Source: a virus
DNA: 64,000 bases
Reading direction: 5' to 3' (one strand)
Virus record (IMG/VR): IMGVR_UViG_3300042691_031577
Coordinates: 46,142-110,141 of that record
Below, in pieces: positions 57,379 to 64,000 of the stretch; position 1 is the first letter of the stretch; the number at the start of each line of letters is the position of its first letter. The position numbers were made by a program, and so were the translations under genes. The notes beneath the pieces were generated by a model. It was not told the DNA's origin, did not search any database, and was given only the letters and a program-made list of their open reading frames with translations.

Positions 57379-57966
57379 TTATTTTGATGAGCCAAATCTC
57401 ATTTTTAAATTTTCTCTATTAATCATATCCTTTAATATTGAAACATAATTAGGATTCTCAGCGTATGATTGAGATAAATAATCAAAATACAGTTCTTCAG
57501 TTGTAATGTTTGATAGATATTTACATTGATAAAATGAGTAATCTAAAACTGATTCATACCATGTATGATAATAAGCATGGTTATTTTCAGTTCCTTTAGC
57601 AGTTGTTATACGTTGATGTGCTTCACGCATACCGAACAGATTATTATTTTCCCTAAATACTTTACTTGTAAAATTACCTGTTTCAAGTTTTGCTTGAGCT
57701 AATACTATGTGAGGGAATTTAATGTTTAATTCTTTTAGTTTTTCAATTAATTTGTCTTCTGAGAATTTATTATACTCTTGAATAACAATCAATTTTTCTT
57801 CCTCAGATAAACTGAGTAAAACATTTTTACCCAATTTATAGCCTGAGTAAAATAAAATAGAACCTAATACTGTTGTCACAATAATAGTGATGACAATAAT
57901 TTTACCTACTACATTAATTGGTTTTGGTTGTAGTGTTTTGGGATCAATTCTAAAGATGTTTTTCAT
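57379..57966 (-). CDS. GH73 glucosaminidase (peptidoglycan hydrolase) with N-terminal TM anchor
   Basis: VLAQAKLETG...NNLFGM...YAENPNY; start MKNIFRID at 57966, after the hairpin promoter at 57981-58011. Confidence 0.85.
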   Translation of the reverse strand: MKNIFRIDPKTLQPKPINVVGKIIVITIIVTTVLGSILFYSGYKLGKNVLLSLSEEEKLIVIQEYNKFSEDKLIEKLKELNIKFPHIVLAQAKLETGNFTSKVFRENNNLFGMREAHQRITTAKGTENNHAYYHTWYESVLDYSFYQCKYLSNITTEELYFDYLSQSYAENPNYVSILKDMINRENLKMRFGSSK

Positions 57967-58015
57967 ATTATTTGTTTTTATAAAGATAATAAAGGGGCTT
58001 TGACAGCCCCTATCT

Positions 58016-59176
58016 TTAGTGTGAATCTCCAACATCATGTTTTTCACTCCAAATTAAATAATCTGGGTTAATACACTTGTACACTTTATTTCGTTCTCCT
58101 GATGTATGTTTAATAACAATACCTTCATGTGGTACTTTAGTATCTTCAATATTATTATTGAATGTATATTTGTCTTGCATTTCTTGATTCCAATAACCTA
58201 TATATAAAACAGGTACGTGTGGTAAATCAATACCACCGATAAAATCAAAAGCCTTCCCAGCCATTGTGTAGTAAGTTTGCTCAGTAGATAAATAATTACC
58301 ATTCCATATAATATCAAACCCAGCAAACTCTAATTCTTTTAATCCGTAATCATAATTCTTTTGAATACCAGGACCATATATCTCACCATAAACCACTATC
58401 CCATTTCCAATTTCTGATGGTTTATGATTTTTAACAAACGCCCATAATTTATTTTTAATGTCGTATTTTTCAGCTACTGTTCTCCATACGTCTGTATCAT
58501 AGAAACCTTGTGAGTCACTACCTTTTTCTACATTATGAGAACCATAAACATATTCATAGTCAATCCATTTATCAGCTAAACCAAAGAATTTCTTTAACTT
58601 ATCCCAGAATGATAATTTATTTTTCTTAACAATACCATAACGAGCATTAGTACCATGTAACTTACGGGTGATTTGAACTTCATCTTCTTCAGTAAACATA
58701 CCGCTAACATTTTTAGCATTAGGAAATTTATAGTATACTTGGAAGTTTGGATTCTGGTGGTATTTAATTTTACGACCTGAAGACAATTGTACTTGTACTG
58801 CTGGTGGTTCGTATTTATAGATTTTAAATAAATCCATCATATCAGCACCTTCAGCCCATTTAGCTTTAGGATGTGTTAATTTCTCAGCATATCTAAATGG
58901 AATAATTAAACATTCACTATATACTCCTCTCAATTTAACAGTACGTACACGTTGACCTTTTCTTAAATAATTAGTCACGCCCATACTATCTGATAACTCT
59001 TGAGGTATAACAGCATCGGTAGTAGCTATGATTACTAAATCACCTACACTGTATTCACCTTTTTTAGTAATACAATTCCATCCACCAGCAACAACTTGTT
59101 CAATGTTGTCTGCACCTGGGATTGGTTTTACTTCGTTGATTGTTGTAACATAACAAACACTATTATTATTTTCCAT
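58016..59176 (-). CDS. RNA ligase, DRB0094/Rnl5-like (N-terminal OB fold + nucleotidyltransferase)
   Basis: PIPGADNIE...VKLRGVYSE, motif I TRKLHGTN, YGEIYGPGIQKN, FAGFDI, EGIVIK, YKCIN. Confidence 0.9.
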   Translation of the reverse strand: MENNNSVCYVTTINEVKPIPGADNIEQVVAGGWNCITKKGEYSVGDLVIIATTDAVIPQELSDSMGVTNYLRKGQRVRTVKLRGVYSECLIIPFRYAEKLTHPKAKWAEGADMMDLFKIYKYEPPAVQVQLSSGRKIKYHQNPNFQVYYKFPNAKNVSGMFTEEDEVQITRKLHGTNARYGIVKKNKLSFWDKLKKFFGLADKWIDYEYVYGSHNVEKGSDSQGFYDTDVWRTVAEKYDIKNKLWAFVKNHKPSEIGNGIVVYGEIYGPGIQKNYDYGLKELEFAGFDIIWNGNYLSTEQTYYTMAGKAFDFIGGIDLPHVPVLYIGYWNQEMQDKYTFNNNIEDTKVPHEGIVIKHTSGERNKVYKCINPDYLIWSEKHDVGDSH

Positions 59177-59202
59177 AACTTAAAGTTTTATTTCAAATCT
59201 AT

Positions 59203-60285
59203 TTACTCATAAGAATCTCTATCAATTTTAATTACATATGGAAATCTTGGAACACCATCAGGTGTTAAATTAAAATACTTAACTGTTGCTTGTTTACCTA
59301 TTAATGTGTCTTTTTGTTTCCACATTTCAGTACATTCTTCCCAATTGAATTTAGGTGAGGCATTAAATCGTTTACCATCTTTATTTTCAAATACAAATGA
59401 TCCTATCATACCTGTTTTATTACCACCACCTTCTTCAATATCAAGTATAGTATATTCTTCATCAATAAATGATTTATGTTTGAGTAATGATTTAGAACGT
59501 TTGTTTTCATATTCATTATCTAAACGAATCATTTGACCTTCATAACCTTGTTCAACATACTCAAAATAATAATTTTCTATATCTTCATCATCAAAACATT
59601 GATGAGTATCAACTAATACACAACATTCAGGTAATTGTAAACTCCACAATTTATTATATCTATCTGAAAATACTCCACTATATGAAGGTAAATCATAAAT
59701 GTGATACTGGATTGATTCAGCGCTTTTTTCTAAATCTTGTGCTGTTGGTTTAGTTTTCTTAACTAACGAGCATATAGCATTGAAATCATTTGCGAATTTA
59801 TCTGCGTATAACTCGCCGTCAAATATAAGGTCAGGGTTTGTGTCAAATAATGAAGACAACGCGTTAAAAATGTGAGGAGCCGATATAATCTTCTTACCAT
59901 TTCTACTCCACATACCGTCTGCTCTTACAATACAACGAATACCATCTAATTTAGGTTGTGAGTAAACTGGGTATTTGATTTTACTTTTATAATCATTGAA
60001 GTCTTGTGCTAACATTGGTTTGAAGAACACAGGTGTGTCGATGTCGTTTATATTTTCAAACGAACCTAATTCAATACGTTTACGATGTATTGCTTGTGCT
60101 TCTTTAAGTGCTTGCTCTTCTGCTGTGCAATATGATTTGGCTTCACAACACGTCCATTCACTTGTTGTTTTAATACCATCAGTATAACCTGATATTGTTC
60201 TATAGCAGTTATTCTCAACTTCAATAGTCCATTGAGTAACTTTACCTGTTGTTGATCGTTTGTATAGTGTGTTTAATAGTACCAT
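59203..60285 (-). CDS. ATP-dependent DNA ligase
   Basis: PMLA, QPKLDGIRC, FDGELY, YHIYD, GYEGQMIR, LLKHK, PRFP. Confidence 0.95.
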   Translation of the reverse strand: MVLLNTLYKRSTTGKVTQWTIEVENNCYRTISGYTDGIKTTSEWTCCEAKSYCTAEEQALKEAQAIHRKRIELGSFENINDIDTPVFFKPMLAQDFNDYKSKIKYPVYSQPKLDGIRCIVRADGMWSRNGKKIISAPHIFNALSSLFDTNPDLIFDGELYADKFANDFNAICSLVKKTKPTAQDLEKSAESIQYHIYDLPSYSGVFSDRYNKLWSLQLPECCVLVDTHQCFDDEDIENYYFEYVEQGYEGQMIRLDNEYENKRSKSLLKHKSFIDEEYTILDIEEGGGNKTGMIGSFVFENKDGKRFNASPKFNWEECTEMWKQKDTLIGKQATVKYFNLTPDGVPRFPYVIKIDRDSYE

Positions 60286-62476: not shown

Positions 62477-62866
62477 CTAATCCCACCAATAGTTAAAATA
62501 TTTTTCCATCATTCTACAAAACAATCTCCAATCTCTTTCTTCTAACTGGCTTGACAATAATAGGTCTTCATGTGTTTGACCTCTACTCCACCAATACTCA
62601 GTATAATAATTATTTTTTCTACGCTCAAGTATTTGAATACATAATTTTAATGCTTTAAGTGCTTTACTAGCATAATATGACTCCCAATTAACATAAGTGG
62701 TATCTGGGTTAGAGAATCGTTTATACATGTTATTTAACTTAAATAACAACATATCCTCAATATAACCATGATCCCAGTCTCTATCATTCCATATTACTGA
62801 AAACCACTTAATTAAGTTTTTAATACTTCTATAAATGTAATATATGTTGGTATTAAGTTTATTCAT
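62477..62866 (-). CDS. Hypothetical protein
   Basis: IWNDRDWDHGY...NYWWD. Confidence 0.7.
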   Translation of the reverse strand: MNKLNTNIYYIYRSIKNLIKWFSVIWNDRDWDHGYIEDMLLFKLNNMYKRFSNPDTTYVNWESYYASKALKALKLCIQILERRKNNYYTEYWWSRGQTHEDLLLSSQLEERDWRLFCRMMEKYFNYWWD

Positions 62867-63294
62867 TTATTTTCTTCTATTTCAATTACAGTAATTTTAC
62901 CTGTTGTTTGTTCTAAAAATATAGTATAATATCTTATTGCAATATCAGGATCTTTACCATATTGACCAATAACAAGTACATACCCATTATTGGTTTCAGA
63001 ATGTAGTTTAAAAATTTTCTCCTCAGGTTTATAATAACGTTTAGTTAAATAGGTTCTTATTTCAGAATAAGTTACATATTTATTTTTTACTTTATTACCA
63101 TTAATATGAGTTATTAAAATATTATCTAAACATAATGTATCAAATTTAAACATACGATTCATTGCTTTAACATACATAGTTGGGTCAATAGCAGCATATG
63201 TTTTTATAGCTTCATACTCAGTGTCATTAGTTTGAGCACTTACATTTGTTGCTAAAACTAAAGCAACAATCATTGTTTTTAAATAATCTTTCAT
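62863..63294 (-). CDS. Secreted hypothetical protein
   Basis: Signal peptide MKDYLKTMIVALVLATNVSA-Q (Gln after the cleavage site, typical of Bacteroidetes). Confidence 0.7.
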   Translation of the reverse strand: MKDYLKTMIVALVLATNVSAQTNDTEYEAIKTYAAIDPTMYVKAMNRMFKFDTLCLDNILITHINGNKVKNKYVTYSEIRTYLTKRYYKPEEKIFKLHSETNNGYVLVIGQYGKDPDIAIRYYTIFLEQTTGKITVIEIEENK

Positions 63295-63317: not shown

Positions 63318-63470
63318 TTATCTTGACATAGAAAAAGACTCTTTCGAGTCTTTACTATTTTTTCTTGAATATATCTTACCACTTGGTTTTACTTTAGAGA
63401 GCATCCGTCGCCTAATTAATTGGGCCAGGTGTCGTTCGTTGTATCCCTCTATTTTGTTCTTGTTTTTCAT
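63318..63470 (-). CDS. Small basic ArfA-like protein (50 aa) with an internal terminator
   Basis: MKNKNKIEGYNERHLAQLIRRRMLSKVKPSGKIYSRKNSKDSKESFSMSR*; promoter motif at 63474-63482. Confidence 0.6.
   Translation of the reverse strand: MKNKNKIEGYNERHLAQLIRRRMLSKVKPSGKIYSRKNSKDSKESFSMSR
63331..63353 (-). terminator. Intrinsic terminator inside the ArfA-like ORF
   Basis: AAAGACTC-GAAA-GAGTCTTTTTC. Confidence 0.7.
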
Positions 63471-63524
63471 ACATATAAATATACAAAACGAGTTGTGCCG
63501 ACACTATTAATTTGATAAAGTGAT

Positions 63525-64000
63525 TTAATTATTATGATAATCTATTAATTTCCACTCTCCATGTTTTTTTTCTACTAATGCTGTACAATTTTCACACCAA
63601 TCTCCTGAATTGAGGTATTCTTTTTTTATTGCTGGTTGATGGATATGACCACAAATAGCTATGTCACATCCTTTTTGTTTTGCTAATCGTGTAGCATTAT
63701 CTTCAAAATCATTTATAAAATTAGTTGCTTTTTTTATACCGTTTTTAATATCTTTAGATATAGAATAATAAGGTAATCCTTTAAATGATCTCCATCTATT
63801 ATACCATCTATTTATCCAAAGTGCAATGTCATATCCAATACTACCGATATATGCTAACCATTTTACTTTTGTGATAAAAATATCTAACACATCCCCATGA
63901 AAAATATAATAACGTGTTTTATTTGATTGGTGAATCCAATCCTCTACAATTTTAATATTTCCAAGATGAAATGGAAGAAAATCTTTTAAAAACTCATCAT
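63525..64000 (-). CDS. Calcineurin-like metallophosphoesterase, LpxH (UDP-2,3-diacylglucosamine hydrolase)-like, partial
   Basis: Frame open to the window edge: DEFL...IFHGDVLD...ICGHIHQP...YLNSGDWCEN. Confidence 0.85.
   Translation of the reverse strand, partial: DEFLKDFLPFHLGNIKIVEDWIHQSNKTRYYIFHGDVLDIFITKVKWLAYIGSIGYDIALWINRWYNRWRSFKGLPYYSISKDIKNGIKKATNFINDFEDNATRLAKQKGCDIAICGHIHQPAIKKEYLNSGDWCENCTALVEKKHGEWKLIDYHNN

What the first reader, a model, noticed from the sequence alone, without database searches (positions are those of the whole stretch)
63318..63470. ArfA-like ribosome-rescue peptide apparently encoded on a non-stop mRNA
Seen: a 50-codon ORF missing from the track. Its core LAQLIRRRMLSKVKPSGKIYSRK resembles the ArfA pattern (helix, then basic-V...GK..YxRK). 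The frame runs through a GAAA-tetraloop terminator with a U tract (63331-63353), so termination would fall about 10 nt before the TAA at 63320-63318. Knowledge: E. coli arfA and Bacillus brfA are made from stop-less mRNAs, so tmRNA destroys the product unless trans-translation is saturated. Inference: a phage-encoded, tmRNA-gated rescue factor. Together with the nearby RNA ligase and tRNA-like RNAs, it could form a package that keeps translation running when host defences cut mRNA or tRNA.
Basis: partly seen in the sequence, partly recalled or inferred. Interest (0 to 1): 0.78.

Follow-up and report, generated by a model that had tools for sequence, protein, structure and literature searches.

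The report
Stop-less candidate ribosome-rescue peptide gene

Summary
ORF 63318-63470 (-) is real. An intrinsic-terminator-like hairpin (63353-63334) plus T-run lies inside it, and the TAA comes 11 nt after the T-run. About a dozen other good terminators in this window start right after their stop codons.

The peptide belongs to a large unnamed family with core RH-AQ-IRR-M--KVKPSGK-Y-RK:
- 141 cluster representatives
- more than 100 phage or metagenome loci
- a single-copy chromosomal gene in streamlined Cytophagales
- a single-copy chromosomal gene in 44 of 114 Leptospiraceae genomes

It is not a recognisable ArfA member. No Pfam, NCBIfam or PDB match was found, and hhalign probability is below 7%. 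It does align colinearly with the ArfA core better than 99% of column-shuffled controls.

Most phage copies have an ordinary stop and no hairpin, so gating is not a family-wide trait. In all 27 Leptospira loci examined, however, a covarying hairpin starts at the Y-S-R-K codons and ends 18-60 nt before the stop, followed by an unconserved hydrophobic tail. That is the arfA/brfA gene plan.

Best reading (about 0.4 for both parts together): a release-factor-dependent rescue-factor analogue, tmRNA-gated in this phage lineage through a 24-nt in-frame terminator insertion. No function was shown. The scan had not noted this sequence elsewhere.

The parts
63318..63470 (-). Open reading frame of 50 codons plus TAA; member of the conserved 'KVKPSGK-Y-RK' small basic peptide family
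   Evidence: single copy in the 110-kb phage record
63360..63446 (-). Conserved core, residues 9-37 (G-Y-N-E-R-H-L-A-Q-L-I-R-R ... K-V-K-P-S-G-K-I-Y-S-R-K). AlphaFold2 predicts a helix at 12-23 followed by an extended basic segment
   Evidence: invariant columns; AlphaFold2 mean pLDDT 77, 92 over residues 11-20
63334..63353 (-). 8-bp stem with GAAA loop inside the ORF (codons 40-46, K-D-S-K-E-S-F); intrinsic-terminator-like
   Evidence: It is part of a 24-nt in-frame insertion relative to the L002/L049/L051 clade. It is kept in L001 and L045, with an A-U to G-C compensatory change
63332..63336 (-). Run of five T (three of them pair in the stem), then C-T-A-T; the likely zone of transcript 3' ends is about 63333-63326, inside codons 46-49
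   Evidence: position of termination inferred from general knowledge of intrinsic terminators
63318..63320 (-). TAA stop codon, 11 nt beyond the T-run
63476..63483 (-). TATATTTA box 5 nt upstream of the ATG. It is a promoter -7-like element, so the message would be leaderless or nearly so. The same box lies 4-17 nt before the start in many homologues

Best explanation
The gene encodes a roughly 46-50-residue basic peptide. [quoted passage not shown] An N-terminal helix would contact the decoding region or a release factor. [quoted passage not shown]

In this phage lineage a terminator hairpin has been inserted in frame, 4 codons before the stop. Most transcripts would then end without a stop codon, so host tmRNA would tag the peptide for degradation. 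The peptide would accumulate only when trans-translation is saturated, for example when host nucleases cut phage mRNA or tRNA.

Shown: the gene, the family, the hairpin geometry, and its recurrence and covariation in Leptospira homologues. Inferred: ribosome binding, release-factor recruitment, the real transcript ends, and tagging.
For: 1. Geometry in the window. The terminator-like hairpin plus T-run lies before the stop. It is of the same type as this phage's other terminators, which all follow their stops.

2. Conservation of the hairpin. It is a 24-nt in-frame insertion kept in three diverged relatives (WIN, L045, L001), with one compensatory pair. The residues after it differ in sequence and length. 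Cluster relatives P0002-P0006 also end in unconserved tails.

3. Independent recurrence in Leptospira. The Leptospira subfamily is homologous (hhalign probability 97.3%, E 2e-11) and is a single-copy chromosomal gene in 44 of 114 Leptospiraceae genomes. In 27 of 27 loci a strong hairpin (region energies -13 to -28 kcal/mol) starts at the Y-S/T-R-K codons and ends 18-60 nt before the stop. In that hairpin 88.6% of cells pair, against 29-53% when the partner is slid. Five of 11 pairs show double changes, and 0 of 500 shuffles reach the covariation score. The residues after the hairpin are hydrophobic and unconserved. The hairpin persists although the convergent neighbour differs between clades, a Kef-type transporter in one and a TPR protein in another.

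4. This gene plan is known only from arfA and brfA. arfA has a stem-loop giving termination or RNase III cleavage, and an unstable hydrophobic C-terminus (PMC8012679). brfA has an intrinsic terminator inside a 71-codon ORF, and its last 9 codons are not in the mRNA (PMC6881298).

5. Colinear similarity to the ArfA core. Family profile against an ArfA profile scores 15.4, with a column-shuffled null of 7.4 +/- 1.8 and 1 of 200 shuffles as high. The Leptospira subfamily gives an ungapped 21-column alignment (l-F..K.TKvKPS.KlYSRK.k with [21 protein letters not shown]), score 14.4 against 7.9 +/- 2.2, 2 of 200 as high. In the ESM Atlas feature search a cluster with ArfA (PF03889) on 23% of its members ranks 19th (score 0.90, 188 of 256 features).

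6. Size and shape fit. Family members are 38-50 residues, with a helix followed by an extended basic tail. Many members carry Y-x-R-K-x-K-H-K. A Lys-His contact with 16S U534 is shared by BrfA and ArfA.

7. Context. tRNA genes lie within 3 kb in 19 of 88 loci, and several copies sit 50 nt upstream of a tRNA array.

8. Phages do carry true ArfA genes. One of them, Citromicrobium phage RXM, keeps a -20.8 kcal/mol hairpin inside its ORF.
Against: No sequence method places the peptide in ArfA, BrfA or ArfT:
- Pfam ArfA matches 0 of 131 family members and 0 of 3 Leptospira proteins.
- NCBIfam gives nothing.
- The PDB sequence search finds no ArfA or BrfA chain at E <= 10.
- hhalign probabilities are 0.7-6%.

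The shuffle tests were done on a pair chosen because it looked similar, so P of about 0.005-0.01 overstates the case.

Most phage homologues and all Cytophagales chromosomal homologues have ordinary stops and no internal hairpin. Gating is therefore dispensable for the family, and in this phage it could be a neutral accident of a terminator insertion.

The window hairpin is modest: 8 bp with 3 G-C pairs and 5 T. Its efficiency, and whether a translating ribosome melts it, are unknown. The next gene starts 24 nt after the stop on the same strand (63294), so read-through transcripts probably exist.

The family-positive Leptospira also have a third RF-1-domain gene, presumably ArfB, so no gap in rescue capacity argues for the family. 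In Cytophagales the lack of a third RF-1-domain gene tracks small genome size generally.

Conserved neighbours give no translation link beyond tRNAs.
Confidence: 0.42

Rival explanations
1. The peptide is a real, conserved small basic protein with some other job, such as a ribosome-associated or nucleic-acid-binding accessory, a translation modulator, or a tRNA- or DNA-binding peptide. The hairpin is just the gene's ordinary terminator. In this lineage it landed a few codons inside the ORF by an insertion, and it has no regulatory meaning.
For: Most phage copies (75 of 88 unique loci with no hairpin, 6 with the stop in the loop) and the Cytophagales copies end normally. There is no significant match to any rescue factor. 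This phage's early region is made of promoter-gene-terminator cassettes, so a terminator is expected here anyway. In AT-rich DNA any frame soon meets a stop, so an open frame through the hairpin costs nothing.
Against: This reading does not explain why every one of 27 Leptospira homologues keeps a covarying hairpin that begins at the most conserved codons and leaves 18-60 nt of unconserved ORF behind it, with different neighbouring genes. It also does not explain the colinear similarity to the ArfA core beyond composition.
Confidence: 0.3
2. The family is a rescue factor (or a true, very diverged ArfA homologue), but in this phage the hairpin is leaky or is melted by the translating ribosome. 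The peptide would then be made constitutively from read-through transcripts that include the stop, as in most phage homologues.
For: The stem is weak (3 G-C pairs). The downstream gene starts 24 nt after the stop on the same strand, with no strong promoter of its own detected. Most phage ArfA-type and family genes have normal stops.
Against: The hairpin has the same A-tract, G+C core and T-tract form as the phage's other terminators. It is conserved with a compensatory change, while the residues after it are not conserved.
Confidence: 0.2
3. The ORF is not translated; the conserved element is an RNA or DNA signal.
Against: Conservation is at the amino-acid level over very diverged DNA, with 141 clusters at <=50% identity sharing R-R, Y and R columns. 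Start and stop codons are kept at matching places, and lengths are 38-50 residues. No Rfam family matches there.
Confidence: 0.03

Closest known systems
ArfA (alternative ribosome-rescue factor A, Pfam PF03889; E. coli b4550)
   Same: Both are small basic peptides. The functional core ends in a Y-x-R-K(-x-K) motif that follows a short hydrophobic or helical segment. The colinear alignment to the core scores above shuffled controls. A hairpin lies inside the ORF ahead of the stop, followed by an unconserved hydrophobic tail (window; Leptospira homologues; ArfA facts from PMC8012679). In E. coli and in Leptospira the tail abuts a convergent gene. ArfA homologues also occur in phages.
   Different: No HMM or profile match reaches significance. 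K-G-K-G-S is replaced by K-P-S-G-K-x. An invariant R-R-x-M stands where ArfA has P-L-F-R. The hosts are Bacteroidota phages, Cytophagales and Leptospira rather than beta- and gamma-proteobacteria. Most members have no internal hairpin.
BrfA (Bacillus subtilis YqkK)
   Same: An intrinsic terminator lies inside the coding region, so the last codons are not in the mRNA (9 in brfA, about 3-4 here). The product is kept low by tmRNA. A positively charged C-terminal region sits in the mRNA channel (PMC6881298).
   Different: BrfA has two N-terminal helices, is about 62 residues long and is limited to Bacillus. No sequence similarity was detected: no BrfA chain appeared in the PDB sequence search at E <= 10.
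Phage-encoded ArfA homologues (pelagiphage HTVC027P gp30; Citromicrobium phage RXM gp10; Brevundimonas phage Bambus; Pseudoalteromonas phage J2-1)
   Same: These are small rescue-factor genes carried by phages, some next to tRNA genes (Salmonella phage Arash). RXM keeps an in-ORF hairpin right after Y-T-R-K-G-R.
   Different: They match PF03889 or E. coli ArfA directly. The window peptide does not.
Pfam DUF7230 (PF23876)
   Same: Ten of 131 family members give weak matches, the best at E 1.4e-4. They lie over the K-x-K-Y-x-R-K-x-K-H-K stretch. It is also a near neighbour in the ESM Atlas feature search.
   Different: All matches fall below the curated cut-off of 27 bits. The window peptide and its genome give no match. 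The function of DUF7230 is unknown, and no paper mentions it.
ArfT (Francisella; KGG-repeat-like charged helix family)
   Same: It is a small charged peptide that recruits RF1 or RF2 to non-stop ribosomes (PMC6514570).
   Different: No sequence match was found by any search here. ArfT is not known to be made from a non-stop mRNA.

Membership tests
ArfA (PF03889) | Match to the family profile at or above the curated cut-off | tested here: not met
   There was no hit for the window peptide, for 131 family members at E <= 10, for 3 Leptospira proteins, or in six-frame searches of the phage record and 3 Leptospira genomes. hhalign probability is 0.7-6%.
ArfA (PF03889) | Conserved core L-F-R-x-R-V-E-K-x-K-K-G-K-G-S-Y-x-R-K with a basic tail | tested here: inconclusive
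   Y-x-R-K, two lysines and (in Leptospira) the F at -14 from Y align without gaps. Scores exceed 99-99.5% of column-shuffled ArfA profiles. K-G-K-G-S is not kept.
ArfA (PF03889) | Stem-loop inside the ORF that yields a stop-less mRNA; hydrophobic unconserved residues after it | tested here: met
   The feature is met at sequence level in the window and its close relatives and in 27 of 27 Leptospira homologues, with covariation. It is not met in most phage and Cytophagales homologues. Transcript ends were not measured.
ArfA (PF03889) | Recruits RF2 to ribosomes with an empty mRNA channel | not testable with these tools
   This needs biochemistry or cryo-EM.
ArfA (PF03889) | Distribution in beta- and gamma-proteobacteria (PMC8012679) | tested here: not met
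   The family was found in phage contigs from lakes and sea water, in Cytophagales and in Leptospiraceae.
BrfA | Rho-independent terminator within the coding region, product down-regulated by trans-translation | tested here: inconclusive
   A terminator-like hairpin lies within the ORF. Regulation by tmRNA is not testable here.
BrfA | Sequence relatedness to B. subtilis BrfA | tested here: not met
   A profile of the family searched against all PDB chain sequences, which include the BrfA complex according to PMC6881298, gave no such hit at E <= 10.
DUF7230 (PF23876) | Match to the profile at the curated cut-off (27 bits) | tested here: not met
   Only sub-threshold partial matches were found, in 10 of 131 members. 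The window and its genome gave none.

The most novel reading that the evidence does not exclude
This is a new family of release-factor-dependent ribosome-rescue peptides, either unrelated to ArfA or so far diverged that no profile sees the link. It is spread mainly by phages of Bacteroidota and fixed in Leptospira and in streamlined marine Cytophagales. In Leptospira it is wired to tmRNA by an in-ORF terminator, a third independent or very old instance of that circuit. In this phage lineage the same wiring was re-created by inserting a terminator, which would turn host tmRNA saturation into a sensor of RNA-cutting defence that switches the phage's own rescue factor on.
Probability: 0.35. Interest if true: 0.85.

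Novelty: new variant of a known kind. Interest (0 to 1): 0.74.

Why it matters
RF-dependent back-up rescue factors are known from only three narrow families: ArfA, BrfA and ArfT. Reviews state that it is unclear what backs up tmRNA in most phyla (PMC8012679).

A fourth candidate family would fill part of that gap. It has more than 140 sequence clusters, and in one bacterial genus it carries the tell-tale stop-less gene plan with covariation support. It is directly testable in Leptospira biflexa and in Flavobacterium or Cytophaga phage systems.

It would also show that phages of Bacteroidota, like those of Proteobacteria that carry true ArfA, invest in ribosome rescue. At least one lineage may couple that factor to the state of the host's trans-translation system. 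tmRNA and rescue pathways are also antibiotic targets, so unrecognised back-up factors matter for that work too.

Tried and rejected
- Complex prediction. The native pair from one Cytophagales genome was used: its RF2 (alignment A5) with its own copy of the peptide (alignment A6). The result was no verdict (score 0.00), so it counts neither way.
- Structure searches with the AlphaFold2 model. Foldseek against PDB gave no match. VIA-align wide gave only Z 2.1-2.3 to unrelated chains. A 50-residue helix plus tail is too small for these methods.
- Sequence libraries on the window peptide. Pfam, NCBIfam and PDB sequences gave nothing, and PHROGs gave only phrog_8868 at E 0.15. tblastn of the peptide against 50,697 GenBank phage records found no match, and blastn of the 2-kb region also found none.
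- Complementary distribution with ArfB. Family-positive Cytophagales have only two RF-1-domain genes, but so do all small genomes of the order. All Leptospiraceae have three, whether or not they carry the family. This gave no signal.
- Conserved neighbours in 88 loci. They are clade-specific only: T5orf172 endonuclease, Dam methylase, DnaJ, ClpP and small unknowns. There was no universal partner.
- Chromosomal neighbours in Cytophagales (DUF5640 protein, M20 peptidase) and in Leptospira (cyclophilin, Kef-type transporter or TPR protein) are uninformative.
- No RF-1-domain or peptidyl-tRNA-hydrolase gene and no tmRNA were found in the phage record, which is 66% complete.
- A sample of 401 Bacteroidota genomes gave only the seed genome as a clear hit.
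The DNA behind protein clusters P0005, P0006, P0017, P0019 and P0034, which have long odd tails, could therefore not be inspected. Scans of IMG/VR with three of them (P0017, P0019, P0034) returned only more distant members with normal stops.

Full report
**1. What is in the window**

On the minus strand, 63470-63318 is a 50-codon ORF ending in TAA. Codons 40-46 are written by an 8-bp stem with a GAAA loop (63353-63334). A run of five T follows (63336-63332), and the stop starts 11 nt after the last T.

The 66-nt region folds at -16.2 kcal/mol. Dinucleotide shuffles average -6.6 +/- 2.1 (z = -4.5), and none of 200 is as stable.

A scan of the whole window on that strand found about a dozen good hairpin-plus-T terminators of the same A-tract, G+C core and T-tract form. 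In each of these the stop codon lies just before or at the foot of the hairpin. Only this ORF has the stop 17 nt after the hairpin end. The one other case is a weak 6-bp hairpin in a doubtful ORF.

A TATATTTA box ends 5 nt before the ATG. The same box recurs 4-17 nt before the start of many homologues.

The window is the last 64 kb of a 110-kb IMG/VR virus record rated 66% complete. All genes in the window lie on this strand.

**2. The gene is real and the family is large**

Ten protein clusters at 56-88% identity share 20 invariant residues. Pattern scans returned 37 viral loci, 80 metagenome loci (mostly lake samples) and 25 loci in bacterial genome assemblies.

A profile search of 1.84 billion cluster representatives gave 141 hits at E <= 1e-3, and 39 at E <= 1e-10. 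Nearly all are 38-70 residues long.

The consensus is a variable lysine-rich start, then G-L-x-E-R-H-V-A-Q-I-I-R-R-K-M-I-x-K-V-K-P-S-G-K-x-Y-x-R-K, then 3-10 further residues and a stop. AlphaFold2 predicts a helix at residues 12-23 and an extended segment through the K-P-S-G-K-x-Y part (mean pLDDT 77).

No Pfam, NCBIfam or solved-structure sequence matches the peptide. Ten of 131 members touch Pfam DUF7230 below its threshold, over the K-x-K-Y-x-R-K-x-K-H-K stretch. The scan's own index holds no look-alike from other windows.

**3. Is the stop-after-terminator layout conserved?**

Among 88 unique phage or metagenome loci:
- 75 have no hairpin of -5 kcal/mol or better near the stop.
- 6 have the stop codon inside a strong terminator hairpin, mostly in the loop, so the stop would be transcribed.
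- 5 have a hairpin before the stop. Only the window and L001 are strong cases.

Eleven further sequences from three extra IMG/VR scans add no new strong case. One repeats L001's contig, one has a weak hairpin before its stop, and nine have plain stops.

The DNA alignment of the closest relatives is nevertheless informative. Relative to the L002/L049/L051 clade, whose tails read K-D-S-L-A-S-D-K-stop, the window, L045 and L001 carry a 24-nt in-frame insertion. That insertion is the hairpin plus its T-run.

The stem differs by a compensatory A-U to G-C change between the window and L001. The residues after the hairpin differ in sequence and length: S-M-S-R in the window, I-L-S-L-A in L001, and a 12-residue run in L045. 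The hairpin is under selection; what follows it is not.

**4. Cellular homologues**

Two groups of bacteria carry the gene on the chromosome.

*Cytophagales.* Nine of 151 sampled genomes have it, all 1.5-1.7 Mb and labelled Marinoscillum or Flammeovirgaceae in the source records. It is a single 40-residue copy in a non-phage neighbourhood, with an ordinary stop and no hairpin. A 401-genome sample of the phylum gave no other clear hit.

*Leptospiraceae.* Forty-four of 114 genomes have a single copy. This subfamily (N-Q-V-K-Q-I-K-x-x-S-R-x-x-F-x-x-K-P-T-K-V-K-P-S-x-K-L-Y-S-R-K) is homologous to the phage family (hhalign probability 97.3%, E 2e-11).

In all 27 Leptospira loci where the motif was located:
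- A strong hairpin begins at the Y-S/T-R-K codons and ends 18-60 nt before the stop.
- T-rich sequence usually follows it.
- The remaining codons spell unconserved, hydrophobic residues.

The arms differ between clades but stay complementary. For an 11-pair helix, 88.6% of cells pair, against 29-53% when the partner is slid by 1-3 columns. Five pairs show changes on both sides, and 0 of 500 shuffles reach the observed covariation score. The gene downstream, which is convergent, differs between clades: a Kef-type transporter in one and a TPR protein in another. The hairpin therefore belongs to the small gene.

**5. Why that matters**

A structured element inside the ORF that removes the stop codon, followed by a hydrophobic, unconserved reading frame, is the defining gene plan of arfA. 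There the stem-loop causes termination or RNase III cleavage, and the full-length product is unstable (PMC8012679).

It is also the plan of brfA. There an intrinsic terminator sits inside a 71-codon ORF, the last 9 codons are absent from the mRNA, and tmRNA tags the product and keeps it low (PMC6881298). In both, this wiring makes the back-up factor appear only when trans-translation fails. I know of no other gene class with this plan; that statement rests on my own knowledge.

E. coli arfA also abuts a convergent gene, mscL, as the Leptospira genes do.

**6. Similarity to ArfA itself**

Standard statistics do not support homology. hhalign probabilities are 0.7-6%. The Pfam ArfA model finds none of 131 members.

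The best alignment is nevertheless always the same colinear one, with the Y-x-R-K motifs in register. Against 200 column-shuffled ArfA profiles, which keep composition:
- The family scores 15.4 against 7.4 +/- 1.8, and 1 of 200 shuffles is as high.
- The Leptospira subfamily scores 14.4 against 7.9 +/- 2.2, and 2 of 200 are as high. This alignment is an ungapped 21-column stretch that also matches ArfA's F at 14 residues before the Y.

Because the pair was picked for looking alike, I treat this as suggestive only. The ESM Atlas feature search lists a cluster with ArfA (PF03889) on 23% of its members at rank 19 (0.90) and a DUF7230 cluster at rank 23. Those are leads, not tests.

**7. Phage ArfA is not new as such**

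E. coli ArfA finds homologues in 17 GenBank phage records, several annotated as ArfA. A paper reports an ArfA-domain gene in pelagiphage HTVC027P (PMC12753301).

Among these, Citromicrobium phage RXM keeps a -20.8 kcal/mol hairpin inside its ORF just after Y-T-R-K-G-R. Others (J2-1, pf16) end normally, and Bambus has its stop inside a hairpin. The mix of gated and ungated copies seen in the new family therefore also exists among true phage ArfA genes.

**8. Context**

tRNA genes lie within 3 kb in 19 of 88 loci. In one clade the gene sits 50 nt upstream of a tRNA array.

In the window a tRNA-like RNA lies 1.2 kb downstream. An RNA ligase (PF09414, 58016-59176) and a DNA ligase lie 4-5 kb downstream. 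These fit a translation or RNA-repair theme but are proximity only. The phage record holds one copy of the gene and no RF-like or peptidyl-tRNA hydrolase gene.

**9. Verdict**

The peptide is not a recognisable ArfA, and most phage relatives are not stop-less. Even so, the family as a whole carries strong circumstantial marks of an ArfA/BrfA-type rescue factor. This phage lineage has the gated form.

My estimates are:
- about 0.55 that the family acts in ribosome rescue
- about 0.55 that most transcripts here lack the stop
- about 0.42 for both together

Nothing functional was shown. The predicted-complex job gave no verdict, and the fold searches were uninformative (see the list of things tried).

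Noticed in passing
L005:3001-3132 (IMGVR_UViG_3300008339_000210) and L006: In this homologue the ORF's TAG stop is nucleotides 8-10 (U8-A9-G10) of a tRNA-Met(CAT) gene that starts 7 nt before the stop. RNase P processing of the tRNA 5' end would therefore cut the stop codon off the peptide's message, which would be another possible route to a stop-less mRNA.
   Followed up: partly
L009, L014, L017, L099 and 15 further loci: The peptide gene sits directly upstream of phage tRNA arrays, 50 nt upstream in several cases. The arrays read Leu-TAA, Arg-TCT, Met, Gln, Glu and so on, on the same strand. In that clade a T5orf172 (GIY-YIG-like) endonuclease gene lies just upstream.
   Followed up: partly
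L204-L233 (Leptospiraceae genomes G542, G543, G003, G585-G622): There is an unannotated-family small gene with a covarying in-ORF hairpin in 44 of 114 Leptospiraceae genomes. It is a candidate tmRNA-gated rescue factor of Leptospira. No paper in the library links Leptospira with ArfA-type rescue.
   Followed up: yes
L126-L145 (Marinoscillum/Flammeovirgaceae MAGs and SAGs; G001, G002): A 40-residue homologue lies as a single-copy chromosomal gene between a DUF5640 protein and an M20 peptidase in streamlined 1.5-1.7 Mb marine Cytophagales. These genomes have tmRNA and only two RF-1-domain genes (no ArfB).
   Followed up: partly
L041:1495-1638 (+) (Pseudomonas phage pf16, KU873925.1): A clear ArfA homologue (GTG start, 47 aa, core S-P-L-F-R ... 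K-G-K-G-S-Y-R-R) is not annotated. Its first 36 bases overlap the opposite-strand 'hypothetical protein' pf16_199 (1312-1530). In Salmonella phage Arash the ArfA homologue next to three tRNA genes is annotated 'ribosomal protein L2'.
   Followed up: no
L043:1483-1665 (Citromicrobium phage vB_CbaS-RXM): The annotated phage ArfA has a -20.8 kcal/mol hairpin inside the ORF right after the Y-T-R-K-G-R codons, about 50 nt before the stop. A phage-borne true ArfA thus keeps the stop-less gene plan.
   Followed up: partly
L073:1248-2183, L094:2855-3394: Phage contigs carrying the peptide also encode a full DnaJ (J domain, zinc-finger and C-terminal domains) 0.4 kb upstream in one clade, and a ClpP protease 0.2 kb downstream in another.
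   Followed up: no
window 63525-63998 (-), cut by the window and contig end: The gene upstream of the peptide is a calcineurin-like metallophosphoesterase fragment with weak Pfam matches only. The gene downstream (62863-63294) starts with a signal-peptide-like segment and has no family match.
   Followed up: no
window 58016-60285 (-): An ATP-dependent DNA ligase (59203-60285) and an RNA ligase with a PHA02142 OB fold (58016-59176) are adjacent. A glucosaminidase-domain protein (57379-58047) follows.
   Followed up: no
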